Source: a bacterium (lineage in GTDB: Bacteria > Patescibacteriota > Minisyncoccia > Phycocordibacterales > UBA2100). Taken from it: DNA of 64,000 nt. Below are positions 1,060 through 63,093 of this stretch, piece by piece. Within the stretch, counting starts at the first letter, position 1. The number at the start of each line of letters is the position of its first letter. The notes beneath the pieces were generated by a model. It worked only from the letters and a program-made list of their open reading frames with translations. It was not told the DNA's origin and did not search any database. The DNA is taken from assembly GCA_030674455.1 (NCBI GenBank), contig JAUSGQ010000015.1, forward strand, positions 5,574-69,573. The letters are read 5' to 3'. The position numbers and the translations under genes are program-made.

Positions 1060-1113
1060 GGGCTTGTCCCGCACAATCAGAGCGTAGCGAATGATTTTGT
1101 GGATGACAAACCT

Positions 1114-1191
1114 TACCCAGCACCTTTGTTTCATTGAGAAACGAAGGTGCTGGGTGTAAGATTTTCTAAACTCGTTATACTCGTTAACAAA
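1114..1191 (+). promoter_or_regulatory. Conserved hairpin (ACCCAGCACCTT...AAGGTGCTGGGT) plus conserved leader ending CTAACATG, copy 1 of 3, upstream of ORF 1199
   Basis: 13 bp perfect inverted repeat at 1114-1158 followed by TAAGATTTTCTAAACTCGTTATACTCGTTAACAAAATCTAAC-ATG. Near-identical copies in the same gene-relative orientation lie upstream of aroC (47364-47500) and trpE (52618-52694). Confidence 0.5.
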
Positions 1192-1198
1192 ATCTAAC

Positions 1199-6822: not shown

Positions 6823-7602
6823 TCAGAATACGAGGATAAGAGTTCCCAATACTATCATGGCAATTCCGGCGATAAGGCGGACCCGGTCGATATGGTCGCG
6901 CTTCCATCCCTGCATTTTTTCTACGACTCCTTTATCCGCTGCAAACCAAAGCACCAAGACGAGCGGAACTATCAGCACGAGATTGTAGAGCAAGAGATAC
7001 CAGAATCCCGCGAAATAGGTTACCTGGTCGCGCAAGAGACCTATGACCATAAGGTATGGCCCGCCCATGCAGGGGAACTGGCAAATTCCCACAAGAAGTC
7101 CGAGGCCGAAAGCCGCTATAATGGAGGTCTTTTCCAACAGCTTCGCCATCGGTTTATGCGCTATTGCAGGCATCTTGAGCTTGAGGGGAATGTTCGGGAA
7201 GAATCTGTTCAGGAGATTGATGATGCCGAAGAGAATGAGAATTGATGCGCCAAGCTTGCCCATGAAGTGCGGCGTGTTGAAGAGGTGCAATACTTTCAAG
7301 AGTCCGAGCCCTATCAAGAGATAAGAGGCGAAAATGCCTGCAATGTATACGCCTCCTATCTGCAAGATTTTCTCCCGCGTCAACTGTAATCCGAACAGGA
7401 ATGCTATCGTGATGAGGAGAATCGAGAACGAGCATGGATGCACGCTATCGAGGAGCGAAGAGATGAGTACAAGCGGAAGAAGCCACGCGCCGCCTTGGCT
7501 TATGTTCCAGATTATCTCCGAAGTAGCCGGACTGAATTTAAGGATGAGTATCGCGAGAATGAACGTGCCAATAACGCCAGCGATGATTAGAAGCCGTTGC
7601 AT
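6823..7602 (-). CDS. Cytochrome c biogenesis CcdA / DsbD transmembrane-domain-like protein
   Basis: Multi-TM with conserved Cys in TM helices (HPCSF, CQFPC), typical of the DsbD/CcdA thiol-disulfide transporter family. Start taken at MQRLLIIAG to abut the DUF1573 gene stop. Confidence 0.6.
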   Translation of the reverse strand: MQRLLIIAGVIGTFILAILILKFSPATSEIIWNISQGGAWLLPLVLISSLLDSVHPCSFSILLITIAFLFGLQLTREKILQIGGVYIAGIFASYLLIGLGLLKVLHLFNTPHFMGKLGASILILFGIINLLNRFFPNIPLKLKMPAIAHKPMAKLLEKTSIIAAFGLGLLVGICQFPCMGGPYLMVIGLLRDQVTYFAGFWYLLLYNLVLIVPLVLVLWFAADKGVVEKMQGWKRDHIDRVRLIAGIAMIVLGTLILVF

Positions 7603-14478: not shown

Positions 14479-15177
14479 TTACGTCCCTACGTCACAATCT
14501 TGTCCTGACAGAACCTTGAAAGACGTCCGGTACGCATCGAGGTTGGAATATTTCTGTTTTCGGTCCTTCGTGTTCCTAACCAAATCTTCCACCTCCGTTA
14601 CTTTTTTAGAATAATCCGTATTTCCATCCAAGGCATCAAACACACAACCAAAACCTTGTCCCCTCTTTTGTGCAACAGCTACCCAAGTCTCCGAATTAAA
14701 CACCTGCGTTAATTCCATCTGCAACGCCTTAGCATACTGCAACTCGGCGGCGCGGATTTTTGCCTCGTTAGGATATTTCTTAAAAATCGCAAGTTCGACA
14801 TCGTCGCGGATGCCGTTTCCGTTTGCGTCTATTCCCTCAACAGTCGCGTCAACTTGCGCGGGGTCGGGCGGCGGCGGGAGATTCTCGCCCATTACGTCTG
14901 CGAGCGTGAGTTTTTGCGCGTGAATTTGCGCGACTACTTCTTGTGTTTTTTCTTGCTCCAATACAAAAGGAAGGCGATAAATAAGCAGGGCGACAAAAAG
15001 CCAGAACGGCACGGCAATAACCCAAAACCACCACTTGCGATAAATGGAGCGGCGGGCTACCGAAATCAAGGGTTCCCCCTGATTCTCTTCATTCCCAGGG
15101 CTGCTCATATTTGAGATTGTAGCACCGTCTCTTTTCTTAACCTCATCACTATCCACAACCCTAGAAAAAACAAACAT
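14479..15177 (-). CDS. Hypothetical membrane protein
   Basis: 232 aa with one TM (WWFWVIAVPFWLFVALLIY). No family recognised. Confidence 0.45.
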   Translation of the reverse strand: MFVFSRVVDSDEVKKRDGATISNMSSPGNEENQGEPLISVARRSIYRKWWFWVIAVPFWLFVALLIYRLPFVLEQEKTQEVVAQIHAQKLTLADVMGENLPPPPDPAQVDATVEGIDANGNGIRDDVELAIFKKYPNEAKIRAAELQYAKALQMELTQVFNSETWVAVAQKRGQGFGCVFDALDGNTDYSKKVTEVEDLVRNTKDRKQKYSNLDAYRTSFKVLSGQDCDVGT

Positions 15178-15211
15178 CCCTATCTTGCGCGGTAGCGTAA
15201 GATAGGGATGT
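15174..15211. promoter_or_regulatory. 38 bp palindrome ACATCCCTATCTTGCGC-GGTA-GCGTAAGATAGGGATGT overlapping the start codon of the PaaX-like gene
   Basis: Read from the sequence. A second copy lies at 15866-15902, immediately downstream of the same gene. Confidence 0.6.
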
Positions 15212-15791
15212 GGGACAGATTGAGGAGAAATCCCGAAAACGCCGAAAGAAGGAGAACATTCAGCAGGCAGTTCTTGCCGCGATAGGAATCGCGGGCATTC
15301 TTGCCGTGACTATGATTGCGCCAAATATCTTTCAGGCGGTTCCCGGTCTCATGGGAAGAAAGCGATACAAACTGGCCTTTCAAGCTCGCACTGCCTCTTC
15401 TCGTCTCGCCATAAAGGGCTACGTGCGATTCATTTTGAAAAATGGAAAGAAATGGATTGAGATTACTGATGCTGGAAGACGCGCTCTGTTGCTCGAGCAT
15501 GAAAAAGCGCGACTCGATGTCATACAGGGCAAACGGTGGGACAAGCGTTACAGACTGGTCATGTTTGACATCCCGCAGAAACGCAAAAACACGAGGGACA
15601 GTGTAAGACGGTTGTTGCGCGAGTGCGGGTTCCTTCGATTGCAGGACAGCGTGTGGGTATTTCCCTACGACTGCGAGGAGTTGATTGTTCTAATTAAGTC
15701 GGATATGCGGCTCGGCAAGGATTTACTGTATGTCATTGTTGATTCGATAGAGAACGACGGTTGGATAAAAAAACACTTCGGCTTGGGATGA
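15210..15791 (+). CDS. PaaX-like transcriptional regulator (N-terminal TM, winged HTH, WDxRW...FDIP central domain); paralog 1
   Basis: RWDKRYRLVMFDIPQKRKNTRDSVRRLLRECGFLRLQDSVWVFPYD resembles the PaaX central/C-terminal (Cas2-like fold) region WDGKWLLLL, and GYVRFILKNGKKWIEITDAGRRALL resembles the PaaX wHTH. GTG start. A paralog lies at 58173-58748. Confidence 0.55.
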   Translation: MGQIEEKSRKRRKKENIQQAVLAAIGIAGILAVTMIAPNIFQAVPGLMGRKRYKLAFQARTASSRLAIKGYVRFILKNGKKWIEITDAGRRALLLEHEKARLDVIQGKRWDKRYRLVMFDIPQKRKNTRDSVRRLLRECGFLRLQDSVWVFPYDCEELIVLIKSDMRLGKDLLYVIVDSIENDGWIKKHFGLG

Positions 15792-15865
15792 TGCGAGAGA
15801 TAGAAATGCGATTGATTCATTTTTGCCCTTTAGCTTTCGATGTCCATTGCATTTCACATTTCCCA

Positions 15866-15902
15866 ACATCCCTATCTCGCGCTACCGCGCAAGATAGGGA
15901 TG
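15866..15902. promoter_or_regulatory. Second copy of the ACATCCCTATCTCGCGC-tacc-GCGCAAGATAGGGATGT palindrome, 3' of the PaaX-like gene
   Basis: Read from the sequence. Together with 15174-15211 it brackets the gene. Confidence 0.6.
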
Positions 15903-15958
15903 TTTGAATGGTTGAGCGTGTAAAACTGTAAAATCGCGAATTACAGAGTCCGAGGGCG

Positions 15959-17071: not shown

Positions 17072-17207
17072 GTGCCAATCAACGAATGAATTCCAATCTA
17101 CAAATAACTGCGAATAAAATACGCTCACCGTCTACAGGTGCCGACCAATGACCGGTCGGCCATTTGTAGCCATTTGTAGTATTCGGATGATTTGTATATT
17201 GGGACAT
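17072..17207. repeat. MITE-like intercistronic element R1 (ends GTGCCAATCAACGAATGAATTCCAATCTACAAAT ... ATTTGTATATTGGGAC), carrying the nested GTCTACAGGTGCCGACCAATGACCGGTCGGC palindrome
   Basis: Shares more than 100 bp with R5 (35290-35459) and R6 (37475-37640). Confidence 0.8.
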
Positions 17208-17795: not shown

Positions 17796-17901
17796 AAGAT
17801 GTTCCAATCTACAAATACATTCCAATCTACAAATTACCACGAATATGACGTGGTGTTATTTGTGGATATTTGTAGCATTCGCATCATTCGCAGATTGGGA
17901 C
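17794..17901. repeat. MITE-like element R2 between rpsB and tsf; it encodes the last 14 aa and the stop codon of rpsB
   Basis: CATAAGATGTTCCAATCTACAAAT...GCAGATTGGGAC. The rpsB C-terminus SQSANDANATNIHK* lies inside the element. Confidence 0.75.
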
Positions 17902-18644: not shown

Positions 18645-18845
18645 GGTTGTATGTGATTGTTTTTTGGATTCTTTAAGCACCCCCTCGTCGCATTAAAACC
18701 ACGCGTTTTCTGAACTTCAAACGGGGCAGGTGTCGCGCGAGTGTATCACAGGCAATAGGCACTAGGCAAATGACCGTACAGTCCGTAACCAGCAGTTACT
18801 AGTTAGTTGTCAATGTACCAAGGGGCGCCCTTGCCGCTTCTTTGT

Positions 18846-18883
18846 ATTGCTTTAGCAAATGCGGCCGCATTTTCTAAAGCAAT
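18846..18883. promoter_or_regulatory. Palindrome ATTGCTTTAGCAAATGCGGCCGCATTTTCTAAAGCAAT (core ATGCGGCCGCAT) in the rpsB upstream region
   Basis: One of three ATGCGGCCGCAT-centred long palindromes in the window; the others are at 20989-21028 and 40015-40056. Confidence 0.6.
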
Positions 18884-19006
18884 ATGCAGTCATACCAACA
18901 TTTTCAGTATCCGATACTTAGTTATAGACCTAAGTATCTGGATGCAAAAATCGCGAGACGCTCTGGACACTTTCGCCACTTTGTACTTATTGGTATCGTA
19001 TAGGTT

Positions 19007-23907: not shown

Positions 23908-24040
23908 AGTCCCAATCTACAAATGATACGAATACTACCTGCCCGCCGAAGCCTCGGCGCAGGCGGGCGAATGGCTACGAATACACGTGGTTTAACATTT
24001 GTAGTTATTTGTAGATTGGAATAAATTTGTAGATTGGTAC
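23908..24040. repeat. MITE-like intercistronic element R3, filling the leuC stop to leuD start gap
   Basis: AGTCCCAATCTACAAAT...ATTTGTAGATTGGTACACCT-ATG, with a nested GC hairpin module CCTGCCCGCCGAAGCCTCGGCGCAGGCGGGCG. Confidence 0.8.
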
Positions 24041-24797: not shown

Positions 24798-24870
24798 CTA
24801 ATCTAACCACTGCTAGCAAAACCATTTTTGCTTTCAATTCTCACCTCGCTCCCACATTTTCTAACCATTC

Positions 24871-25161
24871 TCATTCTAACATTTTGCAAAATGTTAGAAC
24901 GTGAACTGCACGGGCGGTTAGCTTATGCCTTACGCTCCTCGCGTCGTAGCGTTTCAGAATGAGTCCTGCAATTGCCATCTTGCGCAGGTGGTCGGATGCA
25001 TTCTCGTACCCGATGTTCAATCGCTCGGCGATATCCTCAACCGAAAGCTCCGGCTCTTTGTGCAACAGGTTAAGAATTTCGAGCCGCCGGTGATTCGCAA
25101 AACCTTTTACCACCCTCTCAAGCCGCCGATAGTTAGTTGGATTGTTAGTCGCTCCTGTCAT
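24871..25161 (-). CDS. ArsR/SmtB-family HTH transcriptional regulator (paralog 1)
   Basis: 96 aa with ...RRLEILNLLHKEPELSVEDIAERLNIGYENASDHLRKMAIAGLI... (wHTH). The C-terminal ...VLTFCKMLE is encoded by the 3' palindrome. Confidence 0.75.
   Translation of the reverse strand: MTGATNNPTNYRRLERVVKGFANHRRLEILNLLHKEPELSVEDIAERLNIGYENASDHLRKMAIAGLILKRYDARSVRHKLTARAVHVLTFCKMLE
24874..24899. promoter_or_regulatory. Palindrome TTCTAACATTTTGCAAAATGTTAGAA overlapping the 3' end (C-terminal codons) of ArsR paralog 1
   Basis: Read from the sequence. Same core as the 44 bp palindrome upstream of the gene. Confidence 0.65.
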
Positions 25162-25170
25162 GCTTGCATG

Positions 25171-25214
25171 TTATCCACATTCTAACATTTTGCAAAATGT
25201 TAGAATGTGGATAA
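25171..25214. promoter_or_regulatory. Perfect 44 bp palindrome TTATCCACATTCTAACATTTTGCAAAATGTTAGAATGTGGATAA between the ArsR gene (divergent) and leuA
   Basis: Read from the sequence. 10 bp upstream of the ArsR start codon. Confidence 0.7.
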
Positions 25215-28156: not shown

Positions 28157-28260
28157 AAGTCCCAATCTGCAAATGATACGAATACTACGAATGGCTACAA
28201 ATATTACACATCTTACATTTGTAGTTATTTGTAGATTGGGATAGATTCGTAGATTGGTAC
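28157..28260. repeat. MITE-like intercistronic element R4, filling the leuB stop to ilvE start gap
   Basis: GAAGTCCCAATCTGCAAATGATACGAATAC...ATTTGTAGATTGGGATAGATTCGTAGATTGGTACAC. Confidence 0.8.
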
Positions 28261-31212: not shown

Positions 31213-31255
31213 TCCCTTATCAACCCCCTTTTCAACCCCCTTTTCAACCCCTATT
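31213..31255. repeat. Short tandem repeat (TTCAACCCCCTT)x3
   Basis: Read from the sequence. It creates the STPFSTPFSTP spurious ORF. Confidence 0.7.
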
Positions 31256-31257
31256 TT

Positions 31258-31291
31258 CTTATTGCAGTGTTTTGCAAAACACTGCAATAAG
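31258..31291. promoter_or_regulatory. Perfect 34 bp palindrome CTTATTGCAGTGTTTTGCAAAACACTGCAATAAG
   Basis: Read from the sequence. Related copies lie at 31356-31387 and 31652-31683, flanking ArsR paralog 2. Confidence 0.65.
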
Positions 31292-31355
31292 ATACTGAAA
31301 GAAAAAATCGGCGCTATCGTTTTTACACTTTATCGCCCCGTCACTCAATTTCTCG

Positions 31356-31637
31356 CTATTGCAGTCTTTTGCAAAACACTAGAATAGACTCCCCGCGCGG
31401 CGTTAGTTTGTGTCGGACACTGGGTCCCTCGTTTCGCTTCAGCACAAGACCTGCAATCGCAAGTTTGCGAACATGGTCGGACGCATTTTCGTATCCAATA
31501 TCCAACCTTTCGGAAATATCCTCTACTGATAACTCCGGTTCGCGCTTCAGCAAATCCATAATCTGAACGCGCCGGTGATTAGCGAACCCCTTCACGATTC
31601 GTTCGATATTTCTGTACTGACTACTATCTACCGCCAT
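31356..31637 (-). CDS. ArsR/SmtB-family HTH transcriptional regulator (paralog 2)
   Basis: 93 aa, about 60% identical to paralog 1 (RVQIMDLLKREPELSVEDISERLDIGYENASDHVRKLAIAGLVLKR). The C-terminal ILVFCKRLQ is encoded by the palindrome at 31356-31387. Confidence 0.75.
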   Translation of the reverse strand: MAVDSSQYRNIERIVKGFANHRRVQIMDLLKREPELSVEDISERLDIGYENASDHVRKLAIAGLVLKRNEGPSVRHKLTPRGESILVFCKRLQ

Positions 31638-31651
31638 GCTCCCATTTTACC

Positions 31652-31683
31652 CTATTGCAGTGTTTTGCAAAACACTGGAATAG
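31652..31683. promoter_or_regulatory. Palindrome CTATTGCAGTGTTTTGCAAAACACTGGAATAG, 15 bp upstream of the ArsR paralog 2 start
   Basis: Read from the sequence. Confidence 0.65.
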
Positions 31684-34914: not shown

Positions 34915-35289
34915 CTACTCTCCAGCTACCGCCTTTTGAAGTGCATATAGCGAAAGAAGCATGCAGGGTAACCTGGCCGGTCCTATTTTGGCGCGCATTA
35001 ATTCTTGAATCTGGTCGGGGCCGGTGGATTTTAGTTTTTTGACAGTTTTGCCAACCATCCATTCGGTAAATTGAGAGCTGGACGCAACGGAAAGCGCACA
35101 CCCCGAACCGCTGAAACGCACTTTCTCAACGACACCTTTCTTGTTCACCTTTAACTGTAAACGAATTTTGTCGCCGCACAATGGATTTACCGCTTCCGCT
35201 TCATACGTTGGATTTTTCATCACGCCGAAATTTTGCGGATTTCGGTAATGCTCCATTATTTCCTCTCTGTAGATGTCATTATTATCCAT
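34915..35289 (-). CDS. sufU: SufU/IscU-like Fe-S cluster assembly scaffold (sulfur acceptor)
   Basis: NPLCGDKIRL...GSGCALSVASSS...ARLPCMLL. Start taken at MDNND. Confidence 0.75.
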   Translation of the reverse strand: MDNNDIYREEIMEHYRNPQNFGVMKNPTYEAEAVNPLCGDKIRLQLKVNKKGVVEKVRFSGSGCALSVASSSQFTEWMVGKTVKKLKSTGPDQIQELMRAKIGPARLPCMLLSLYALQKAVAGE

Positions 35290-35459
35290 ACTTGTACCAA
35301 TCAACGAATGAATTCCAATCTACAAATAACTGCGAATGAACAACTCGCACCGTCTACAGGTGCCGACCAATGACCGGTCGGCCATTTGTAGCCATTCGCC
35401 CGCCTGCGCCGAGGCTTCGGCGGGCAGGTAGTATTCGGATGATTTGTAGATTGGGACAT
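35290..35459. repeat. MITE-like intercistronic element R5 (sufS-sufU junction) with nested GTCTACAGG and GC-hairpin modules
   Basis: Near-identical to R6 over about 165 bp. Confidence 0.85.
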
Positions 35460-35467
35460 ATAGTTTT

Positions 35468-36718
35468 TTATTGAAATTTCCTTTGAATCGTAACGAGCGC
35501 ACTCACCAATCGGTCAACCTCTTCGGCGGTATTGTAAATACAAAGACTAGCTCTCACCGATGCATCAAGCGAAAGGCTCTCGTGCAAAATCTGCGCGCAG
35601 TGGTGGCCGGCGCGAACGGCAATCCCCTCTCTATCAAGCAGGGTCGCAATATCGTGCGCGTGAATTCCTTTGATCGTAAAACTGAATATCGGCGCTCTCG
35701 CCTTCGTTGTCGCGGGGCCGAGCAGTGCGAGGCCGGGAACATTTTTGAGTGCGCGGAGCGCGTAGGCAGTCAGACTGCCTTCATATTTCGCAATGTTATT
35801 CAATCCGATACTTTGCAGAAATGAAATCGCCGCGCCCAAGCCGATAACTTCGGCAACGGGCGGCGTCCCGCCTTCAAATTTCTCGGGCAAGGGCGCGTAG
35901 GTAGTCTTTGTGCGCGTGACTTCTGCTATCATGTGGCCGCCGAATTTATGAGGCGGCAATTTCTCCAACAGTTCTTTTTTACCGTACAAAACGCCAATCC
36001 CCGTCGGACCGTACATTTTATGGCCGGAAAAGGCCAAGAAATCGCACCCGAGCGCCTGCACGTCAACCGCGCCGTGCGCTATTGATTGCGCCGCGTCCAC
36101 CAGCACCAACGCGCCTGCCTTGTGCGCGAGTGAGATCATCTCCCGAACAGGATTCTCAGTTCCCAGTACGTTTGAAACATGAGTAACGCCGACAAACTTC
36201 GGCTTGTGCTTCGCCAATAATTTCTTGAAAGCGCCAATATCAATTCTTCCCTCGCTATTGAGCGGAACAAAATCTAGTTTCAATTTCTTCCGCGCGGTCG
36301 ACCGATCAATGGTCGACACCTGTAGACGGGCTGCGGCCTGCCACGGCACAATCATCGCGTGATGCTCCATGTCTGATAGCAAAATCCGGTCTCCACGTTT
36401 CAAAAAAGCCTCGGATAATCCGGCAACGACGACATTGATGCTCTCGGTTGCTCCCGAAGTAAATATGATTTCTTCGCGATGCTTTGCGTTTACAAATTCT
36501 TTTACCTGGTCGCGAACTTTCTCGTACGCTGCAGTCGCGCCTTCGGCAAGCGCGTACACGCCGCGATGAACCGGCGCATTCTGCGAGCGGTAAAATTTGT
36601 CCATCGCTTCAATAACCGTAGCGGGCTTCTGCGTCGTCGCCGCGTTGTCCAAATACGCCAGGGGCTTCAGGCCTCGCTTTTGAAATATGGGAAATTGATT
36701 GCGGATTTTGGGAATCAT
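35468..36718 (-). CDS. sufS: Cysteine desulfurase SufS
   Basis: Class V aminotransferase, PLP-lysine region ...FLAFSGHKMYGPTGIG..., and a C-terminal ...RAGHHCAQ.... Contains an in-frame palindromic element (RLQVSTIDRST) at 36296-36329. Confidence 0.9.
   Translation of the reverse strand: MIPKIRNQFPIFQKRGLKPLAYLDNAATTQKPATVIEAMDKFYRSQNAPVHRGVYALAEGATAAYEKVRDQVKEFVNAKHREEIIFTSGATESINVVVAGLSEAFLKRGDRILLSDMEHHAMIVPWQAAARLQVSTIDRSTARKKLKLDFVPLNSEGRIDIGAFKKLLAKHKPKFVGVTHVSNVLGTENPVREMISLAHKAGALVLVDAAQSIAHGAVDVQALGCDFLAFSGHKMYGPTGIGVLYGKKELLEKLPPHKFGGHMIAEVTRTKTTYAPLPEKFEGGTPPVAEVIGLGAAISFLQSIGLNNIAKYEGSLTAYALRALKNVPGLALLGPATTKARAPIFSFTIKGIHAHDIATLLDREGIAVRAGHHCAQILHESLSLDASVRASLCIYNTAEEVDRLVSALVTIQRKFQ
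36296..36329 (-). repeat. In-frame copy of GTCTACAGGTGTCGACCATTGATCGGTCGACC within sufS
   Basis: On the coding strand this gives CGTCTACAGGTGTCGACCATTGATCGGTCG. E. coli SufS is about 11 aa shorter here. Confidence 0.7.
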
Positions 36719-36766
36719 ATAGGACCTACGCAAGAACCTCAAAAAACAGCGCAAAACCGAGCTTCT

Positions 36767-36799
36767 CGTCTACAGATGCCGATGCATACCCCATCGGCC
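36767..36799. repeat. Intergenic type-B palindromic element CGTCTACAGATGCCGATGCATACCCCATCGGCC
   Basis: Read from the sequence. Confidence 0.7.
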
Positions 36800-36804
36800 T
36801 GTCT

Positions 36805-36882
36805 TTGCGAGCGGAGCGAAGCAATCCAGGTTCTATGGCTCTAATCCTAGATTGCTTCGGCAAAGCCTCGCAATAACGATTC
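36805..36882. repeat. Palindromic repeat R10 (TTGCGAGCGGAGCGAAGCAATCCAGG...CCTAGATTGCTTCGGCAAAGCCTCGCAA)
   Basis: Related to R11 at 34776-34900. Confidence 0.6.
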
Positions 36883-36901
36883 AGATGTTGCGTAAGTCCT
36901 T

Positions 36902-37468
36902 TCATAGTTTTAATAATGCGGAACGGATTTCTTTTGATTCCGCGGGAGGAAACTCATCCACAAACGACTCCAGAAATCCGCGCACAATCATTTTCTTCGC
37001 CTCTTTGCGGGAAAGTCCTCGAGTCGCGAGATAAAACAGTTCCTCCTCGCCGACTTTTCCCACCGTGGCGCCGTGTCCGGCCTTGACTTCATTTTCCAAG
37101 ACTTCGAGCCGCGGAATTGCACCCGCGCGCGCGCCCTGCGAAAGCAAAATTGCGTGTTCATTCAAATCCGCGTCCGCGTTTTTCGCTCCCTTCTTGATAA
37201 CGACGAGCCCTTCGTAGTTTGCAACAGCGTCTCCATCCAGCACGCCTTTGACGAGAGTTCGGGAAAAAGTGTTAGGTGCGTCGTGAATAACCTCGGTCTC
37301 CAATTTGAACATGCCCTTTTTCGCAAAGAAAATGCAAAGTACCTTGACCGACCCGCCGGGCGCATCCATTAGAATCCGTGCTTTTACATGGCGGTCGCCA
37401 CGGCCCAACCATACGATAGGAACAATTCTTTTTTCGTCGACTCCTACATGTACGTCAATAGTTTCCAT
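36902..37468 (-). CDS. sufD: SufD-like Fe-S assembly protein (short form)
   Basis: Beta-helix core and a C-terminal helical region similar to SufB/SufD. Start taken at METIDV; the track's upstream extension reads into R6. Confidence 0.7.
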   Translation of the reverse strand: METIDVHVGVDEKRIVPIVWLGRGDRHVKARILMDAPGGSVKVLCIFFAKKGMFKLETEVIHDAPNTFSRTLVKGVLDGDAVANYEGLVVIKKGAKNADADLNEHAILLSQGARAGAIPRLEVLENEVKAGHGATVGKVGEEELFYLATRGLSRKEAKKMIVRGFLESFVDEFPPAESKEIRSALLKL

Positions 37469-37474
37469 AGTTAT

Positions 37475-37640
37475 GTGCCAATCAACGAATGAATTCCAAT
37501 CTACAAATAACTGCGAATAAAATACGCTCACCGTCTACAGGTGCCGACCAATGACCGGTCGGCCATTTGTAGCCATTCGCCCGCCTGCGCCGAGGCTTCG
37601 GCGGGCAGGTAGTATTCGGATGATTTGTAGATTGGGACAT
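37475..37640. repeat. MITE-like intercistronic element R6 (sufB-sufD junction)
   Basis: TGTGCCAATCAACGAATGAATTCCAATCTACAAAT...GATTTGTAGATTGGGACAT. About 97% identical to R5. Confidence 0.85.
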
Positions 37641-37647
37641 ACGATAT

Positions 37648-39072
37648 TCATCCAAGGGAGCCTTCCATTTCGAGCTGGATAAGCCGGTTCAATTCAACGG
37701 CATATTCGAGCGGAAGCGTTTTTATAACCGGCTCCATAAACCCTTGTACTACAAGGTTAATAGCCTCCTCTTCGGTAAGCCCGCGGCTCATTAGATAAAA
37801 CACCTGCTCTTCGGAAATTCTGCCGATTTTCGCCTCGTGTCCGATAGTCACGTCCTCTTCGTCGACAGTTATATACGGCACAGTATTGGAGACTGAAATG
37901 TTGTCGGGCATCAGAGCGTCGCACTGCACGTGCGAGGTGGCACCCTTCGCACCTTTCACGATTTTGAGCTGGCCTCGATATGTGGAGATGCCGCCGCCGA
38001 AACTGATGCTTTTTGAGATAACGGTTGAAGATGTCTGCGGAGCCAGATGAATGACTTTCGCGCCAGTGTCTTTGTGCTGACCGGGGCCCGCGACCGCGAT
38101 GTTCAGATGCTCGGCGCGCGCGCCGCGGCCTTGCAGAATCGAGCACGGATAGAGCATTGTCGTCTTGCTTCCCATGCTCCCTCCAACCCATTCTTGAATC
38201 CCATCTTCTTCCACAATTGAGCGCTTCGTATTCAGGTTGTAAACATCCTTGCTCCAATTCTGAATCGTCGTGTATCGGCATCGCGCTCCCTTTTTTACGA
38301 AAATCTCTACAACCGCCGCATGAAGCGACGAAGTATTGTACATTGGCGCAGTGCATCCTTCTATGTACTGTACCGAGGCACCCTCATCGACAATTATTAA
38401 CGTGTGTTCAAATTGGCCAGACGCACGCGCGTTCATGCGGAAATATGTTTGGAGAGGCATGTCTACATGCACGCCATTCGGCACATACAAGAAACTCCCG
38501 CCCGACCACACGGCCCCATGGAGAGCCGCAAGCTTGTGCTCGCTGGTCTTCACGCACTTCGTCATAAAATATTCTTTTACCAATTCGGGATATTTCTGGA
38601 CCGCAGTATCAGTGTCGCAAAAGATAACGCCTTTATCTTCCCATTTCGGGCGCAACTTTTGATAGAAGCCTTCGGATTCGTACTGGCCGATGACGCCGGC
38701 GAGAAAAGCGCGCTCGGCTTGAGGTACGCCGATTTTTTCAAACGTATTTTTAATATCGGCTGGCACATCATCCCAGCTTTTGTATCTCCCTTCTTCAGTA
38801 CGTTGGTAGTATGTAATCTCATCGAAATGGAGACCGCTCAAATCCGGCCCCCATGTGGGAACCGGCAGGCGCATAAATTCCTCGAATGACTTGAGCCGCA
38901 ATTCCCGCATCCACGCCGGCTCATTTTTGATTGTTGAAATTTCCTCAACAACCTCGCGCGTAATCCCCTTTTTAGCGCGATAGAGGAAGCGATCCGGAAT
39001 GGCTGTTGCTCCGCCGTCTTTTGTTTGTTCTCCGATAGGTGCTTGGGTTTGGGTCTTCATAGCATGTGCCAA
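37648..39072 (-). CDS. sufB: Fe-S cluster assembly protein SufB
   Basis: Highly conserved SufB (..FYQKLRPKWEDKG..., C-terminal ...LMSRGLTEEEA...). The track uses a TTG start at 39072; an ATG lies at 39060. Confidence 0.9.
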   Translation of the reverse strand: MAHAMKTQTQAPIGEQTKDGGATAIPDRFLYRAKKGITREVVEEISTIKNEPAWMRELRLKSFEEFMRLPVPTWGPDLSGLHFDEITYYQRTEEGRYKSWDDVPADIKNTFEKIGVPQAERAFLAGVIGQYESEGFYQKLRPKWEDKGVIFCDTDTAVQKYPELVKEYFMTKCVKTSEHKLAALHGAVWSGGSFLYVPNGVHVDMPLQTYFRMNARASGQFEHTLIIVDEGASVQYIEGCTAPMYNTSSLHAAVVEIFVKKGARCRYTTIQNWSKDVYNLNTKRSIVEEDGIQEWVGGSMGSKTTMLYPCSILQGRGARAEHLNIAVAGPGQHKDTGAKVIHLAPQTSSTVISKSISFGGGISTYRGQLKIVKGAKGATSHVQCDALMPDNISVSNTVPYITVDEEDVTIGHEAKIGRISEEQVFYLMSRGLTEEEAINLVVQGFMEPVIKTLPLEYAVELNRLIQLEMEGSLG

Positions 39073-39168
39073 TTTACGAATGATGCGAATACTACAAATG
39101 GCTACAAATATAAGAAGCCTGGTATTCGTAGTTATTCGTAGATTGGAATAAATTTGTAGATTGGGACT
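39066..39168. repeat. MITE-like intercistronic element R7 (sufC-sufB junction)
   Basis: GTGCCAATTTACGAATGATGCGAATAC...ATTCGTAGATTGGAATAAATTTGTAGATTGGGAC. Confidence 0.8.
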
Positions 39169-39179
39169 TCATATATTTT

Positions 39180-39950
39180 CTAGATGTAATCGCTATATCC
39201 ATTTTTCTCGATGTCTTTTGCGAGCGCCTGCGTGCCGGATTTAATAATCTTTCCTTTGTGCAAAATGTGCACTCTGTCGGCCTTTATCCACCGCAGTATG
39301 CGGTTGTAGTGCGTGATGATAATGATGGAGACGCCGCGCGCGCGAAGTTTCGTGATTTGTTTGGCAACAAGCTTTAGAGCGTCGATATCCAGCCCCGAAT
39401 CTATCTCGTCAATTATGACGCATTTGGCGGGCAAGAGTGACAACTGCAGAATTTCCATTTTCTTTTTTTCTCCTCCCGAAAACCCATCGTTTAGGGAGCG
39501 CGAGAGAAACTCGTCCTGTATGTGGAGAGCTTTCGCGGTCTCTTTTATATCGTTGCGAAAATGCGCCATTTTGAAATCCTTCCGTTTCACAGAAAATTTC
39601 CGTATAGCAATCGTGAGCAGATTCGTGACTGAAACTCCCGAGACTGCCTGAGGATGCTGGAGAGCGAGCAAGACGCCCGCGCGCGCGATTTCGTCGGTCT
39701 TCATCGAAGAAAGCTTGTTTTTGCCGAACGCTATTGTGCCTCTCGCTATCTTGCAGCTTGGATGCCGAAGTATTGTGTTGCCAAGCGTAGATTTGCCCGA
39801 GCCGTTCGGACCCATAATCACATGCGTCTTGCCCTGCGGCAAAATCAAATTGATGCCGTTCAAAATCGGCTTAGCTTCAAGCGTAACGTGCAGATTCTTG
39901 ATGGTGAGTGTGGACATAATGTTCATTTGCCCGCCTAAACGGCTACGCAT
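39180..39950 (-). CDS. sufC: Fe-S cluster assembly ATPase SufC
   Basis: Walker A GPNGSGKST, ABC signature LSGGEKKK, Walker B IIDEIDSGLD. Start possibly at 39920 (MNIMSTL). Confidence 0.9.
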   Translation of the reverse strand: MRSRLGGQMNIMSTLTIKNLHVTLEAKPILNGINLILPQGKTHVIMGPNGSGKSTLGNTILRHPSCKIARGTIAFGKNKLSSMKTDEIARAGVLLALQHPQAVSGVSVTNLLTIAIRKFSVKRKDFKMAHFRNDIKETAKALHIQDEFLSRSLNDGFSGGEKKKMEILQLSLLPAKCVIIDEIDSGLDIDALKLVAKQITKLRARGVSIIIITHYNRILRWIKADRVHILHKGKIIKSGTQALAKDIEKNGYSDYI

Positions 39951-40014: not shown

Positions 40015-40056
40015 ATATTGCTGTAGCAAATGCGGCCGCATTTGCTACAGCAATAT
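40015..40056. promoter_or_regulatory. Perfect 42 bp palindrome ATATTGCTGTAGCAAATGCGGCCGCATTTGCTACAGCAATAT upstream of the suf operon
   Basis: Read from the sequence. Same ATGCGGCCGCAT core and near-identical arms to 18846-18883. Confidence 0.65.
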
Positions 40057-40083
40057 GCAACTGGAATCATTTCTCCAAATTCG

Positions 40084-41379: not shown

Positions 41380-41500
41380 TGGAGTTTATCTGCGTTAATG
41401 TGCGTTAGTTCTGCGTAAATCTGCATGTATTTTGTATTTGCGTTAATCTGCGTTAGTTCTGCGTAAATTTGCGTGTATTTTTTATCTGCGTAAATCTGCG
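41380..41500. repeat. About 48 bp tandem direct repeat (2.5 copies) made of phased CTGCGT(T/A)A units at roughly 10.5 bp spacing
   Basis: ATCTGCGTTAATGTGCGTTAGTTCTGCGTAAATCTGCATGTATTTTGTAT / TTGCGTTAATCTGCGTTAGTTCTGCGTAAATTTGCGTGTATTTTTTAT / CTGCGTAAATCTGCG, between the ilvA start and the ridA stop. Confidence 0.7.
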
Positions 41501-42130: not shown

Positions 42131-42781
42131 CTATAGGTTAGACTTTCTCGCCCAATTAACAAACAACTTCACTTTCTCCAAATCTTTTGTTCCATCCGCA
42201 TTTGATACTCCAGAATTTACATCGACGCCGTATGGGCGGACTTTTTCCACCGCATCGGCTACGTTATCGGGATTCAAGCCGCCGGCCAAAATTATCGGAA
42301 GCTTGATTGATTCCACAATTCTTTTGCTGATGTTCCAATCGTGAGTCTTCCCCGTTCCACCCTTCTGCCCATTCTCCTTAATTCCAGAGTCAAGAACGAG
42401 CCCGTCTGCCGCACCCTCATAGCTCTTCGCTTCCTCAATCGCGCTTTCGTCGTACACATTGACCACTTTAAATAATTTGATGTTCGGAAGTACTGATTTG
42501 ATTTTGTGCATTCCATCTACGTCTGCATGCGTTTGAACGGCTTTGACCCCCGTTTTTTTAACAAGCCCAATAAGTTCTTCCGGGTCAGTAACCGATGTCA
42601 CCAAAACCGGCGTAGAATCTTTCGGCAATTGCGAAATAATGTCGGCTGCTTTCTCGATGGTGATAGGATTCCTCGCGTGCTTGAGCTCGATGTGAAAACC
42701 GAGCATATCTGCTCCGCGCGCGAGCACCGCACGAGCAGTTTCGATATCCATGATTCCGCAGATTTTCACGAGAGCATTCAT
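42131..42781 (-). CDS. trpF: Phosphoribosylanthranilate isomerase
   Basis: VKICGI...ARGADMLGFHIE... is the PRAI TIM-barrel signature. Divergent from trpCBA. Confidence 0.85.
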   Translation of the reverse strand: MNALVKICGIMDIETARAVLARGADMLGFHIELKHARNPITIEKAADIISQLPKDSTPVLVTSVTDPEELIGLVKKTGVKAVQTHADVDGMHKIKSVLPNIKLFKVVNVYDESAIEEAKSYEGAADGLVLDSGIKENGQKGGTGKTHDWNISKRIVESIKLPIILAGGLNPDNVADAVEKVRPYGVDVNSGVSNADGTKDLEKVKLFVNWARKSNL

Positions 42782-42884
42782 ACCAATATACAAATGTATT
42801 CCAATCTACAAATAACTACAAATGTAAAGCAATGTAATATTTGTAGCCATTCGTAGTATTCGTATCATTTGCAGATTGGGACAT
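42782..42884. repeat. MITE-like element R8 in the divergent trpF/trpC promoter region
   Basis: TACCAATATACAAATGTATTCCAATCTACAAATAACTACAAATG...ATTTGCAGATTGGGACAT. Confidence 0.75.
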
Positions 42885-47355: not shown

Positions 47356-47363
47356 GTTAGATT

Positions 47364-47500
47364 TTGTTACGAGTAATTACGAGTTAGAAAATCTTACACC
47401 CAGCACCTTTCACGCTCATTCTACCATTTAATCGGCGAGTGACATCTGTTGTTTGTGGTTTACAAATGTAACTAATTCCACATTAAAGGTGCTGGGTTAT
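47364..47500 (-). promoter_or_regulatory. Hairpin (ACCCAGCACCTT / AAGGTGCTGGGT, with a roughly 70 nt loop) plus conserved leader ...TAACAAAATCTAACATG upstream of aroC (copy 2)
   Basis: Same element and orientation relative to the gene start as 1114-1191 and 52618-52694. Confidence 0.5.
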
Positions 47501-52608: not shown

Positions 52609-52617
52609 GTTAGTTTT

Positions 52618-52694
52618 TCTTAACGAGTTTACGAGTTTAGAAACAGCTTACACCCAGCACCTTTGTTTCAGTAAGAAACGAAGGTGCTGGGTTA
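52618..52694 (-). promoter_or_regulatory. Hairpin ACCCAGCACCTT-TGTTTCAGTAAGAAACG-AAGGTGCTGGGT plus conserved leader ...TTAAGAAAAACTAACATG upstream of trpE (copy 3)
   Basis: See 1114-1191 and 47364-47500. Confidence 0.5.
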
Positions 52695-52727
52695 GGAATA
52701 TGTAATTCGCTTCGCTCATAACACTTC

Positions 52728-60139: not shown

Positions 60140-60311
60140 ATTAGAGATTCTTAGTGAGCATAGCGAGCTTAGAAACTCTTATATCCGCCCAAATTTTTGA
60201 CTTCGGAAACTTTGTGGCAAAATGCTCAAAATTCGGCATGTGATTGATGTTTAGCATAACTCCGGCACGGCCAAAAATTTAGGCGGATCGTTAAAAACAT
60301 ATTCGCTTCGC

Positions 60312-62985: not shown

Positions 62986-63093
62986 AAGATATGTACCAAT
63001 CTACGAATTTATTCCAATCTACGAATGACTACGAATAAGAAACACGAGTATTTGTAGCCATTTGTAATATTCTTATCATTTGTAGATTGGGAC
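62986..63093. repeat. MITE-like intercistronic element R9, filling the rplO stop to secY start gap exactly
   Basis: AAGATATGTACCAATCTACGAAT...ATCATTTGTAGATTGGGAC. Confidence 0.8.

What the first reader, a model, noticed from the sequence alone, without database searches (positions are those of the whole stretch)
35290..39168. MITE-like elements occupy every intercistronic gap of the suf operon and other operons, abutting stop and start codons exactly
- Elements 100-170 bp long with inverted ends GTCCCAATCTACAAAT...ATTTGTAGATTGGGAC, and internal TTTGTAG/TTCGTAG iterations, fill these gaps precisely: sufC-sufB (R7), sufB-sufD (R6), sufS-sufU (R5), leuC-leuD (R3), leuB-ilvE (R4), rplO-secY (R9) and rpsB-tsf (R2). 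R8 sits in the trpF/trpC divergent region and R1 lies upstream of tsf.
- R5 and R6 are about 97% identical, which implies recent spread.
- Their ends provide a conserved start-proximal leader, AGATTGG(T/A)ACA(n3-6)ATG, for the downstream cistron.
- R2 even supplies the last 14 codons and the stop of rpsB.
- Their position inside operons suggests that they are co-transcribed and may act as RNA processing sites, mRNA stability elements or translation-initiation elements, comparable to REP/BIME or Correia elements, rather than inert selfish DNA.
Basis: seen in the sequence. Interest (0 to 1): 0.75.

Follow-up and report, generated by a model that had tools for sequence, protein, structure and literature searches.

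The report
Palindromic mobile repeats filling operon junctions
A roughly 101-base hairpin-forming repeat, new to the little-studied Kaiserbacteria-like candidate-phylum bacteria, sits almost only in the tiny spacers between co-transcribed genes just before the next start codon; it behaves like a miniature transposon kept uniform by copy-to-copy recombination, and no RNA function could be shown.

Summary
The window holds nine copies of one repeat family with a 101-103 nt core, longer where smaller repeats are nested. Eight lie between co-directional genes and one lies in the trpF/trpC divergent spacer. Sixty-five non-redundant copies from related groundwater genomes show the same placement. One end lies 0-16 nt (median 5) upstream of a start codon; the other lies a few nt past the upstream stop.

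I read it as a MITE-like, non-coding palindromic mobile element of Kaiserbacteria-like CPR bacteria.
- Orthologous junctions are filled in some genomes and empty in others, where the genes overlap or lie 1-7 nt apart.
- Copies appear to be overwritten and flipped in place by gene conversion.
- The stems show anti-covariation, not compensatory change, so selection for an RNA hairpin is not supported.
- The start-proximal terminus almost never restores pairing (G in 3 of 60 copies). That fits selection to keep the initiation region open.

No target-site duplication, transposase, promoter, terminator or Rfam match was found. Its RNA-processing and translation ideas remain untested. Verdict: a new member of a known kind, of moderate interest.

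The parts
17072..17205 (-). R1, 134 nt. Core element with a nested 33-nt CGTC-tagged mini-repeat at 17128-17161. It lies between tsf (stop 5 nt away) and a 140-aa ORF (ATG 3 nt away).
   Evidence: The junction is empty (4-nt gap) in L123.
17801..17901 (-). R2, 101 nt, at the rpsB-tsf junction. The rpsB frame runs 46 nt into the element, giving the last 14 codons and a TAA stop. The tsf ATG is 5 nt beyond the double end.
   Evidence: The orthologous copy in L123 has the same read-in.
23909..24040 (+). R3, 132 nt, at the leuC-leuD junction. It carries a nested 30-nt GC hairpin at 23939-23968. The leuC stop TGA ends 1 nt before the element and the leuD ATG is 4 nt after it.
   Evidence: L143 has a different repeat family at this junction.
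28159..28260 (+). R4, 102 nt, a plain core copy at the leuB-ilvE junction. The stop is 18 nt upstream and the ilvE ATG 5 nt downstream.
35294..35457 (-). R5, 164 nt, at the sufS-sufU junction. Core plus nested mini-repeat (35350-35383) and GC hairpin (about 35398-35427). The sufU ATG is 4 nt from the double end and the sufS stop 10 nt from the single end.
   Evidence: Plain orthologues occur in L143 and L163. L090 has an unrelated insert at this junction.
37475..37638 (-). R6, 164 nt, at the sufB-sufD junction. It is 96% identical to R5, including both nested inserts (37531-37564 and about 37579-37608).
   Evidence: The orthologue in L090 (5308-5409) is a plain 102-nt copy of the other subfamily, which points to gene conversion.
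39066..39167 (+). R7, 102 nt, at the sufC-sufB junction. It is internally flipped relative to transcription (the genes are on the minus strand), yet it keeps GGGAC next to the stop side and GGCAC next to the sufB ATG.
   Evidence: The junction is empty (1-nt gap) in L090.
42780..42882 (-). R8, 103 nt, in the trpF/trpC divergent spacer. The trpF ATG overlaps the double end (GGTATGAATG) and the trpC ATG is 30 nt from the single end.
   Evidence: An orthologue occurs in L135.
62993..63093 (-). R9, 101 nt, at the rplO-secY junction. The rplO stop TGA ends 1 nt before the element and the secY ATG is 7 nt after it.
   Evidence: The junction is empty (3-20 nt) in six other Kaiserbacteria-like genomes and is filled by other families in L130 and L141.
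36728..36900 (.). A different palindromic repeat (ends AGGACYTACGCAA...TTGCGTAAGTCCT) fills the sufD-sufS junction and also carries the mini-repeat (36767-36799). It is not a member of the family but is part of the same phenomenon.
   Evidence: L090 has an ATGA overlap at this junction.

Best explanation
This is a family of non-coding, imperfectly palindromic mobile repeats, like a MITE in form. The core is about 101 nt. One end carries one copy of the 16-mer CCAATCTRCRAAT-type motif. The other end carries two copies 18 nt apart. It is confined to a sub-clade of Kaiserbacteria-like Parcubacteria (candidate phyla radiation). Copies enter the very short spacers between co-transcribed genes, where relatives without the element have overlapping genes or gaps of 1-7 nt. 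They stay there for a long time.

Shown: the copy number; the placement next to stop and start codons; presence or absence of the element at orthologous junctions; nesting of smaller repeats; the hairpin potential of the transcript. Also shown is that the same junction holds copies with identical outermost termini and flanks but inverted, differing interiors.

Inferred: copies are kept close to the family consensus mainly by gene conversion between copies. Because the arms are inverted repeats, conversion can act in either orientation and so flips the interior in place. The elements are transcribed within the operon mRNA. They are tolerated rather than needed. Selection acts mainly to keep the start-proximal terminus mismatched, so that the few bases before the next AUG stay unpaired in an organism that uses no Shine-Dalgarno sequence. 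The transposase and the insertion chemistry are unknown.
For: Repeat family and enrichment: (75 full copies in 44 loci, 63-65 non-redundant).

Placement: 40 copies have the double end 0-11 nt upstream of a co-directional ATG, 20 are internally flipped, and 5 are unclear. The median spacer is 5 nt to the start and 6 nt to the stop. In the window, 8 of 9 copies lie in short junctions that hold about 4.8% of the non-coding DNA (P = 2e-10).

Mobility:
- R7 is present in the window, while L090 has a 1-nt gap.
- R1 is present in the window, while L123 has a 4-nt gap.
- R9 is present in the window, while six genomes sampled without bias have gaps of 3-20 nt.
- Only one copy occurs in 137 kb of those genomes.

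Gene conversion and in-place flips: L129_1037 (forward) and L124_9360/L131_5829 (flipped) share the termini GTGCC/GGAAC and homologous flanks, but they differ in orientation and loop type. R5 and R6 are 96% identical with the same two nested inserts, whereas their orthologues are plain and that of R6 is of another subfamily. Orthologous pairs fall into three groups: loops identical, intermediate or unrelated.

No RNA-level optimisation: anti-covariation at a13-f4 (A.C 22, G.T 14, A-T 8, G-C 3) and at c5-d4 (24, 16, 3, 3). The G.U/A.C asymmetry follows the element's own orientation in both classes.

Terminus: the base third from the start-proximal end is G in 3 of 60 copies, while the base third from the stop-proximal end is C in 41 of 60 (Fisher 1e-13). 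Restoring that pair lowers the predicted unpaired fraction of positions -9..+3 from 0.47 to 0.36 (Wilcoxon 1e-7).

Hairpin: -30 to -45 kcal/mol with z of -3 to -7 for forward copies.

Genes in the window lack Shine-Dalgarno motifs. No promoter-like or terminator-like sites lie in the elements. No Rfam family matches.
Against: - No target-site duplication could be shown. The flanks continue the palindrome as (T)AT|GTCCC...GGNAC|AT(A), and the frequent left flank TATGAA does not track the downstream start context.
- No autonomous partner or transposase was found, though only about 0.5 Mb of related DNA was available.
- Long intergenic regions should be neutral landing sites, yet they hold no copies. 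That needs either strong target specificity or retention by function.
- At orthologous junctions the arms are 91-96% identical, while flanking coding DNA is 70-80% identical and loops are 65%. Orthologous arms are also more alike than non-orthologous ones (96% against 89%). Purifying selection would produce this just as gene conversion would.
- Orientation is biased 40:20 towards the strand that folds better as RNA.
- The accessibility effect of the terminal mismatch is modest, and any added pair lowers accessibility almost by construction.
Confidence: 0.6

Rival explanations
1. The element has been taken over by the host as an intercistronic RNA element. The hairpin in the operon transcript would act as a processing site, a stability element or an insulator that sets the relative expression of the two flanking cistrons, as reported for REP/BIME, ERIC and Correia elements.
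For: - Stable hairpins are predicted in forward-oriented transcripts.
- Location is near-exclusive to operon junctions and the elements are absent from long intergenic DNA.
- Arms are far more conserved than flanking coding DNA at orthologous sites.
- Orientation is biased 2:1 towards the better-folding strand.
- Unrelated palindromic families occupy the same junctions in sister genomes.
- The start-proximal terminus depends on its position relative to the gene.
Against: - There is no compensatory covariation. Mismatches are kept as A.C or G.T.
- In the mRNA sense the outer stem carries more A.C than G.U.
- A third of copies are flipped and fold weakly, e.g. R7 at -24 kcal/mol with z of -2.1.
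- The same junctions work without any element in relatives, with overlaps or gaps of 1-7 nt.
- No RNA-level data are available.
Confidence: 0.22
2. The element is a translated relay. It carries a sense-strand ATG beside the upstream stop, a 5' half free of stop codons and a 3' half rich in TAG. Ribosomes leaving the upstream gene would restart, melt the hairpin by translating a 22-52 codon mini-ORF, and stop 8-42 nt before the next AUG. That would preserve translational coupling in an organism without Shine-Dalgarno sequences.
For: - 35 of 40 forward copies have ATG at the 5' boundary, always in the one frame that stays open into the 3' arm.
- The two left-flank variants, TATG|TCC and TATGAAG|TCC, differ by 3 nt.
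- Nested inserts of 30 and 33 nt keep the frame open.
- The rpsB frame uses the same frame to read into R2.
- In an unrelated junction-filling family, at least 7 of 32 copies have 35-41 codon ORFs that run from 7-10 nt after the upstream stop to a TAA 1-3 nt before the next ATG.
Against: - The ATG follows from the palindromic terminus ...ACAT/ATGT..., and the open frame is a property of the inherited consensus, so the copies are not independent evidence.
- Only about 5 of 20 flipped copies have such an ORF.
- Variable sites are not concentrated at third codon positions (read by eye from the alignment).
- Loop length varies by 1-2 nt.
- The mini-ORF ends tens of nt before the next start, not at it.
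Confidence: 0.1
3. The element is a REPIN-type unit: a doublet of REP-like sequences moved by a RAYT (Y1/HUH) transposase through single-stranded DNA, rather than a MITE derived from a DDE insertion sequence.
For: - GTAG occurs three times per arm (ATTYGTAG), and REP superfamilies are tagged by GTAG or CGTC (PMC3733652).
- No target-site duplication was found, which fits Y1 transposition.
- The size, about 100 nt forming a long hairpin, is like that of REPINs (PMC3116915, abstract only).
- The same genomes carry a CGTC-tagged REP-like mini-repeat.
Against: - The arms are not themselves short palindromes, and no GTAG sits as an unpaired tag at the foot of a stem.
- The arms are built of direct 8-18 nt iterations, which looks more like multiple transposase-binding sites.
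- No RAYT gene was seen, although none was searched for systematically.
Confidence: 0.12
4. The elements are integron attC-like recombination sites or programmed invertible switches.
For: They are imperfect palindromes that directly follow ORFs in co-oriented arrays. The interiors are found in both orientations at one site.
Against: - The flanking genes are housekeeping genes in conserved order: suf, leu, trp and ribosomal operons.
- No GTTRRRY core sites are visible in the aligned copies.
- No integrase or invertase gene was noted among the genes examined.
- The flips are differences between species, not variation shown within a population.
Confidence: 0.02

Closest known systems
Bacterial MITEs in general, e.g. 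Correia/CREE of Neisseria (PMC2649163, PMC10969869)
   Same: - About 100 nt, non-coding, with inverted ends and many copies.
- Presence or absence differs between relatives.
- Found inside transcription units, where they can form RNA hairpins and can supply codons to neighbouring genes.
   Different: - No sequence similarity.
- No TA or other target-site duplication was detected.
- No promoter-like hexamers.
- The ends are asymmetric, with one 16-mer at one end and two at the other.
- Confinement to stop/start junctions is almost complete.
- The host is a candidate-phylum bacterium, a group for which no such element was found in the searched literature.
ERIC/IRU and related enterobacterial repeats (RU-1/2/3; PMC2759123)
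   Same: - Imperfect palindromes of 100-170 nt.
- Often inside operons and co-transcribed.
- Found in both orientations.
- Can carry open reading frames or extend neighbouring ORFs.
   Different: - The sequence is unrelated.
- ERIC copies are not concentrated within a dozen nt of start codons.
- The orientation-dependent effects on mRNA reported for ERIC (my recollection of De Gregorio et al. 2005, not checked here) have not been tested for this family.
REP/BIME and REPINs moved by RAYT transposases (PMC3116915, PMC3733652)
   Same: - High-copy palindromic repeats between co-directional or convergent genes.
- GTAG motifs are present.
- The hairpin unit is about 100 nt.
- No target-site duplication.
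- Evolution within the genome keeps copies alike.
   Different: - The arms are not REP-type short GC-rich hairpins carrying an unpaired GTAG tag.
- The composition is AT-rich.
- Copies lie next to start codons, whereas REPs lie mostly downstream of genes.
- No RAYT has been identified.
Rickettsia palindromic elements (RPE) and CGTC-tagged REPs (PMC3733652)
   Same: The resemblance applies to the 33-nt mini-repeat nested in R1, R5 and R6. It has a CGTC head and a short GC stem-loop, and it is inserted in frame in protein genes. Exact 11-residue indels occur in SufS and SufU.
   Different: The main 101-nt element was not seen interrupting a gene; at most an upstream frame ends inside it (rpsB in R2 and L123). 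The mini-repeat has a 7-bp stem and 7-nt loop, against 8-9 bp and 4-5 nt in the described CGTC families.

Membership tests
MITE (miniature inverted-repeat transposable element) | Small (about 50-300 bp), without coding capacity, many copies | tested here: met
   The core is 100-105 nt. There are nine copies in 64 kb and 75 in 44 related loci. The only open frame is 22-52 codons, with no sign of third-position constraint (positions read by eye).
MITE (miniature inverted-repeat transposable element) | Terminal inverted repeats | tested here: met
   The 16-nt termini are complementary except at the third base pair. The palindrome extends into (T)AT/AT(A), and further complementary 8-mers lie inside.
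MITE (miniature inverted-repeat transposable element) | Target-site duplication flanking each copy | tested here: not met
   No direct repeat was found beyond what the family-wide flank consensus explains. TATGAA on the left does not predict ATGAA on the right. Empty sites in L090, L123, L112 and L165-L167 are too diverged to define one. Old insertions may have lost it.
MITE (miniature inverted-repeat transposable element) | Evidence of mobility: filled and empty orthologous sites | tested here: met
   R7 against L090 (1-nt gap), R1 against L123 (4-nt gap), R9 against six genomes (3-20 nt gaps), and the L124/L129/L131 junction against L112.
MITE (miniature inverted-repeat transposable element) | A related autonomous IS with the same termini | not testable with these tools
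   None was seen among the isolated ends in about 0.5 Mb of related loci. No complete genome of the lineage could be scanned, and there was no match in the plasmid or phage collections.
REP / REPIN (moved by RAYT) | Each unit is a short imperfect palindrome with an unpaired GTAG (or CGTC) tag at one end; REPIN = two such units inverted | tested here: not met
   The arms are direct iterations of ATTYGTAG(ATTGGNAY), not self-complementary units. The GTAGs lie inside the paired region.
REP / REPIN (moved by RAYT) | A RAYT (Y1/HUH) gene flanked by the repeats | not tested
Correia / CREE | 26-bp Correia inverted repeat, TA duplication, IHF site, promoter-forming ends | tested here: not met
   The sequence is unrelated. 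There is no consistent TA on both flanks (and inspection of the flanks). No promoter-like hexamers lie in the elements.
Any Rfam RNA family | Score at or above the family's gathering threshold | tested here: not met
   Only a tRNA in the whole window reached threshold. In 35200-39250 the best hit was a chance miRNA-type hairpin at E = 0.42.
Structured functional RNA (generic) | Compensatory base changes that keep the helix in the transcribed strand | tested here: not met
   There is anti-covariation at the variable pairs. The G.U/A.C asymmetry follows the element's orientation, not transcription.
Integron attC site | Core sites R''/R' (GTTRRRY), cassette genes, nearby integrase | tested here: not met
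   No such core is visible in the aligned copies. The flanking genes are conserved housekeeping operons.

The most novel reading that the evidence does not exclude
In these bacteria, which lack Shine-Dalgarno sequences, several unrelated families of junction-filling palindromes may be built to be translated through. Each would have a start codon beside the upstream stop, a 5' half free of stops, and stops just before the next AUG. Ribosomes would then unwind the hairpin and be handed on to the next cistron. Such a 'translational relay' would make insertion into an operon harmless, or would even set the degree of coupling between neighbouring genes.
Probability: 0.1. Interest if true: 0.8.

Novelty: new member of a known kind. 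Interest (0 to 1): 0.45.

Why it matters
Candidate-phyla-radiation bacteria have small, streamlined genomes and are not known for interspersed repeats. Here one family alone takes up about 1.7% of a 64-kb stretch, and several other families fill further operon junctions.

The family is an unusually clean case of a mobile element restricted to stop/start junctions. It also shows in-place flipping and overwriting of copies. That is a warning against reading high identity between copies as recent transposition, and against reading conservation as RNA function.

If the elements affect expression, they would bear on an open question: how internal cistrons are initiated in bacteria that lack Shine-Dalgarno sequences. 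They are also useful markers for binning and strain tracking of Kaiserbacteria in groundwater metagenomes.

Tried and rejected
- **Genome-collection scan with the 16-mer ATTYGYAGATTGGGAC.** Most of the 117 stretches were chance matches in unrelated phyla. Only nine loci held true copies.
- **Outward promoter in the double end (TTGTAG-17-TAAATT).** It did not pass the consensus scan, and the region held fewer promoter-like sites than shuffles.
- **Terminator role.** No T-run follows the hairpin.
- **Target-site duplication of TATGAA or an ATGA overlap.** The idea was attractive because empty junctions are ATGA overlaps and seven upstream genes stop at the TGA of TATGAA. However, the right-hand start context does not track the left flank.
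- **TA duplication with TGT...ACA termini.** The right flank is not consistently TA.
- **G.U excess as evidence for RNA selection.** The excess follows the element's orientation in both classes.
- **"Arms conserved, loop diverged, so purifying selection."** The mean hides three kinds of orthologous pair, and gene conversion explains them equally well.
- **"This junction is always filled."** Unbiased loci around secY show it is usually empty.
- **Flipped copies as a separate subfamily.** Their nearest relatives are often forward copies.
- **Rfam, plasmid and phage searches.** They gave nothing.
- **Regular-expression search for the second ("leader") family.** It was too strict. The replacement script mis-scores copies whose downstream gene starts with ATGA, so its count of bridging ORFs is a lower bound.

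Full report
**What is there**

The terminal 16-mer GTCCCAATCTACAAAT, allowing three mismatches, occurs 27 times against 0.57 expected from shuffles. The repeat finder groups the copies into families.

The core is 101-103 nt (R2, R4, R7, R8, R9). Longer copies carry nested inserts:
- a 30-nt GC hairpin in R3, R5 and R6;
- a 33-nt mini-repeat in R1, R5 and R6.

The element is an imperfect palindrome with unequal ends. One end has a single 16-mer (GTCCCAATCTRCRAAT). The other has two 16-mers 18 nt apart (ATTTGTAGATTGGRAT nn ATTYGTWGATTGGNAC). Further CTACRAAT/ATTYGTAG 8-mers lie inside, around a variable loop of about 14 nt.

NCBIfam confirms the neighbouring genes: sufC, sufB, a short sufD, sufS, sufU, leuC, leuD, leuB, ilvE, rpsB, tsf, trpF, trpC, rplO and secY.

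Three details of the finding need correction. R1 is downstream of tsf, not upstream. The sufD-sufS gap holds a different palindromic repeat. 'Exact' abutment means 1-18 nt from the upstream stop and 3-7 nt from the next ATG, with R8 overlapping the trpF ATG. R2 does encode the last 14 codons and the stop of S2, as does its orthologue in L123.

**Whose genome**

The SecY of the window is 78-86% identical to proteins named Candidatus Kaiserbacteria and Parcubacteria group bacterium GW2011_GWA2_51_10. True copies of the repeat occur in those and a few unnamed MAGs, and in 46 groundwater metagenome contigs. Genes in the window have no Shine-Dalgarno motif; their upstream regions are A/T-rich. Searches of the open literature for such repeats in this group returned nothing relevant.

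**Placement across the family**

A profile search gave 75 full copies, of which 63-65 are non-redundant.
- In 40 copies the double end lies 0-11 nt upstream of the ATG of a co-directional gene.
- In 20 copies the interior is reversed, and it is the single end that abuts the ATG.
- Five copies are unclear.

The median spacer is 5 nt to the start and 6 nt to the upstream stop. By the mechanical test, 57 of 58 copies have a co-directional ORF ending at the other end, but about six of those are spurious frames, so roughly 50 is the safer figure. Seven upstream genes stop at the TGA of the flank TATGAA, and two (rpsB in two species) stop inside the element.

In the window, subtracting the elements leaves spacers of 5-28 nt, and an overlap for R2. 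Such short junctions make up about 4.8% of the non-coding DNA yet hold 8 of the 9 copies (P about 2e-10).

**Mobility and turnover**

Orthologous junctions differ between relatives.
- L090 has a 1-nt gap where the window has R7.
- L090 has an ATGA overlap where the window has the other family.
- L123 has a 4-nt gap where the window has R1.

Loci fetched through SecY, and so not selected for the repeat, show rplO-secY gaps of 3, 6, 3, 20, 7 and 3 nt. Only one copy of the family occurs in that 137 kb. In two closer relatives the same junction holds two other palindromic families. In L169 the ribosomal-protein operon has at least seven junctions filled by a second family. The junctions therefore work without any element. 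They are repeatedly colonised in a sub-clade where several such families are active.

**How copies evolve**

At nine orthologous junctions between diverged genomes, identities are as follows:

| Region | Orthologous pairs | Non-orthologous pairs |
|---|---|---|
| Flanking coding DNA | 70-82% | not measured |
| Arms | 89-96% | 84-91% |
| Loop | 65% | 39% |

The mean for the loop hides three kinds of pair: loops identical, intermediate or unrelated.

Two cases show copies being overwritten.
- One junction, upstream of a gene that begins MSKTVFVGLSGGV, carries a forward copy in L129 and flipped copies in L124 and L131. All three have the same unusual termini (GTGCC...GGAAC) and homologous flanks, but they differ in loop type.
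- R5 and R6 are 96% identical and share both nested inserts. Yet the orthologues of R5 (L143, L163) and of R6 (L090) are plain, and the L090 copy belongs to the other subfamily.

Gene conversion between copies is the most economical account. Because the arms are inverted repeats, conversion can pair in either orientation, which also explains R7. A caveat is that the mini-repeat sits at the same position in copies from several genomes, so it may target that site. Shared nesting alone is therefore weaker evidence than the subfamily switch.

**Is an RNA structure selected?**

Forward transcripts fold into long hairpins of -30 to -45 kcal/mol (z of -3 to -7). Two registers are possible, with the 5' arm paired to the outer or to the inner 16-mer; mean pairing probabilities are 0.60 and 0.29. 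Three results argue against selection on the transcript.
- The excess of G.U over A.C is about 2:1 on the element's own single-to-double strand, both in forward copies (120 against 57) and in flipped copies (68 against 30). It therefore follows the element, not transcription.
- The variable stem pairs show anti-covariation. Pair a13-f4 is A.C in 22 copies, G.T in 14, A-T in 8 and G-C in 3. Pair c5-d4 is 24, 16, 3 and 3. These states read as orientation markers of flipped segments.
- The flipped R7 folds weakly as mRNA, at -24 kcal/mol with z of -2.1.

No promoter-like or terminator-like site lies in the elements, and no Rfam family matches.

**The one position-dependent signal**

The base third from the start-proximal end is G in only 3 of 60 copies. 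A G there would complete the terminal helix. The base varies freely among A, T and C. The stop-proximal end has the complementary C in 41 of 60 copies (Fisher 1e-13). The single end reads GTCCC in 34 of 40 forward copies but in only 3 of 20 flipped ones (2e-7). Flipped copies are not a separate lineage.

Part of this pattern follows from in-place flips that leave the termini untouched. The near absence of G at a position that is otherwise free to vary suggests selection against closing the helix next to the AUG. In silico, restoring the pair lowers the unpaired fraction of positions -9..+3 from 0.47 to 0.36 (p = 1e-7) and adds 3-7 kcal/mol of stability. The effect is modest, and any added pair lowers accessibility almost by construction.

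**Boundaries and insertion chemistry**

The flanks continue the palindrome as (T)AT|GTCCC...GGNAC|AT(A), where N is A, T or C. About half of the forward copies have TATGAA on the left. I found no target-site duplication and no autonomous partner. There is no match in the plasmid or phage collections.

**A lead I could not settle**

In 35 of 40 forward copies, an ATG at the 5' boundary opens the one frame that stays open for 22-52 codons, including through the 30-nt and 33-nt nested inserts. The frame closes 8-42 nt before the next ATG in most copies. In the second family, at least 7 of 32 copies have 35-41 codon frames that run from just after the upstream stop to a TAA 1-3 nt before the next ATG.

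This could mean that the elements are translated through. It could equally be a by-product of the palindromic terminus (ACAT/ATGT) and of a consensus whose 5' half (CTACAAAT) lacks stops while its 3' half (ATTTGTAG) is full of them. Variable sites show no third-position bias, and flipped copies mostly lack the frame.

**Verdict**

The element is best filed as a new family of bacterial MITE-like palindromic repeats. It is notable for three things: a candidate-phylum host, near-total restriction to stop/start junctions, and evolution by in-place gene conversion and flipping.

Noticed in passing
window 3471, 3504, 8008, 17129, 23248, 29077, 35351, 36314, 36767, 37532, 41527, 56747 (start of the 15-mer): A 33-34 nt mini-repeat (CGTCTACAG[G/A]TGCCG plus a short GC stem-loop) occurs 12 times. 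Seven copies lie inside ORFs, all on the sense strand and in frame. SufS of the window has an exact 11-residue insert (RLQVSTIDRST) that is absent from L090 and from B. subtilis SufS. SufU of L090 has GSSTDADHGPV, which is absent from the window. This resembles CGTC-tagged REPs and Rickettsia RPEs (PMC3733652). In copies of the main element from several genomes it always sits right after CTACAAAT at the start of the loop.
   Followed up: partly
window 36728-36900: A second palindromic repeat (ends AGGACYTACGCAA / TTGCGTAAGTCCT) fills the sufD-sufS junction. L090 has an ATGA overlap at this junction.
   Followed up: partly
window 1111-1198, 47356-47440, 52609-52696, 60140-60311; L169 320-453, 808-937, 3298-3432, 7491-7730, 8632-8768, 9399-9534; L143 1810-1941; L130 3180-3370; L166 3350-3509: A third 'leader' family has a GC-flanked hairpin followed by a conserved 40-nt tail (AGATTTTCTAAACTCG...AAAATCTAAC) that ends directly at the ATG of the next gene. 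It fills many junctions of the ribosomal-protein operon in L169. It also occupies rplO-secY and leuC-leuD in relatives where the window has R9 and R3. Many copies contain a 35-41 codon frame that bridges the upstream stop and the downstream start.
   Followed up: partly
L141 1250-1390: A fourth palindromic family, built of CAAAAT-type iterations, fills rplO-secY in this relative. Other junctions in L141 and L159 hold iterated TAGTTAG or AGTTTTA motifs.
   Followed up: no
window, all gene starts: No Shine-Dalgarno-like motif precedes the genes; the leaders are A/T-rich. leuA and leuC share an upstream GYTATATTAGTRAG motif about 20 nt before the ATG, possibly a -10 box with a very short leader.
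   Followed up: no
window 41387-41482; 18845-18888 and 40016-40059; 15173-15224 and 15865-15916; 24867-24903 and 25173-25209; 31248-31289, 31345-31386 and 31641-31682: Further small repeat families occur in intergenic DNA. There is a 48-nt tandem duplication rich in CTGCGTTA, and several palindromes are present in two or three copies.
   Followed up: no
window 36902-37468: SufD is only 188 residues and matches just the C-terminal half of the SufD/SufB models. The same short form occurs in L090.
   Followed up: no
L121 951-1051 against L132 753-853: The elements are identical and the right flanks 99% identical, but the left flanks are only 80% identical. The element marks a recombination or rearrangement breakpoint between two populations.
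   Followed up: no
L118 1520-1555, L151 11292-11327, L161 6326-6361; L147 about 1290-1310; L146 about 7060-7085: Partial extra copies of the double-end 16-mer lie directly beside full copies, as tandem partial duplications or as remnants of earlier insertions.
   Followed up: no
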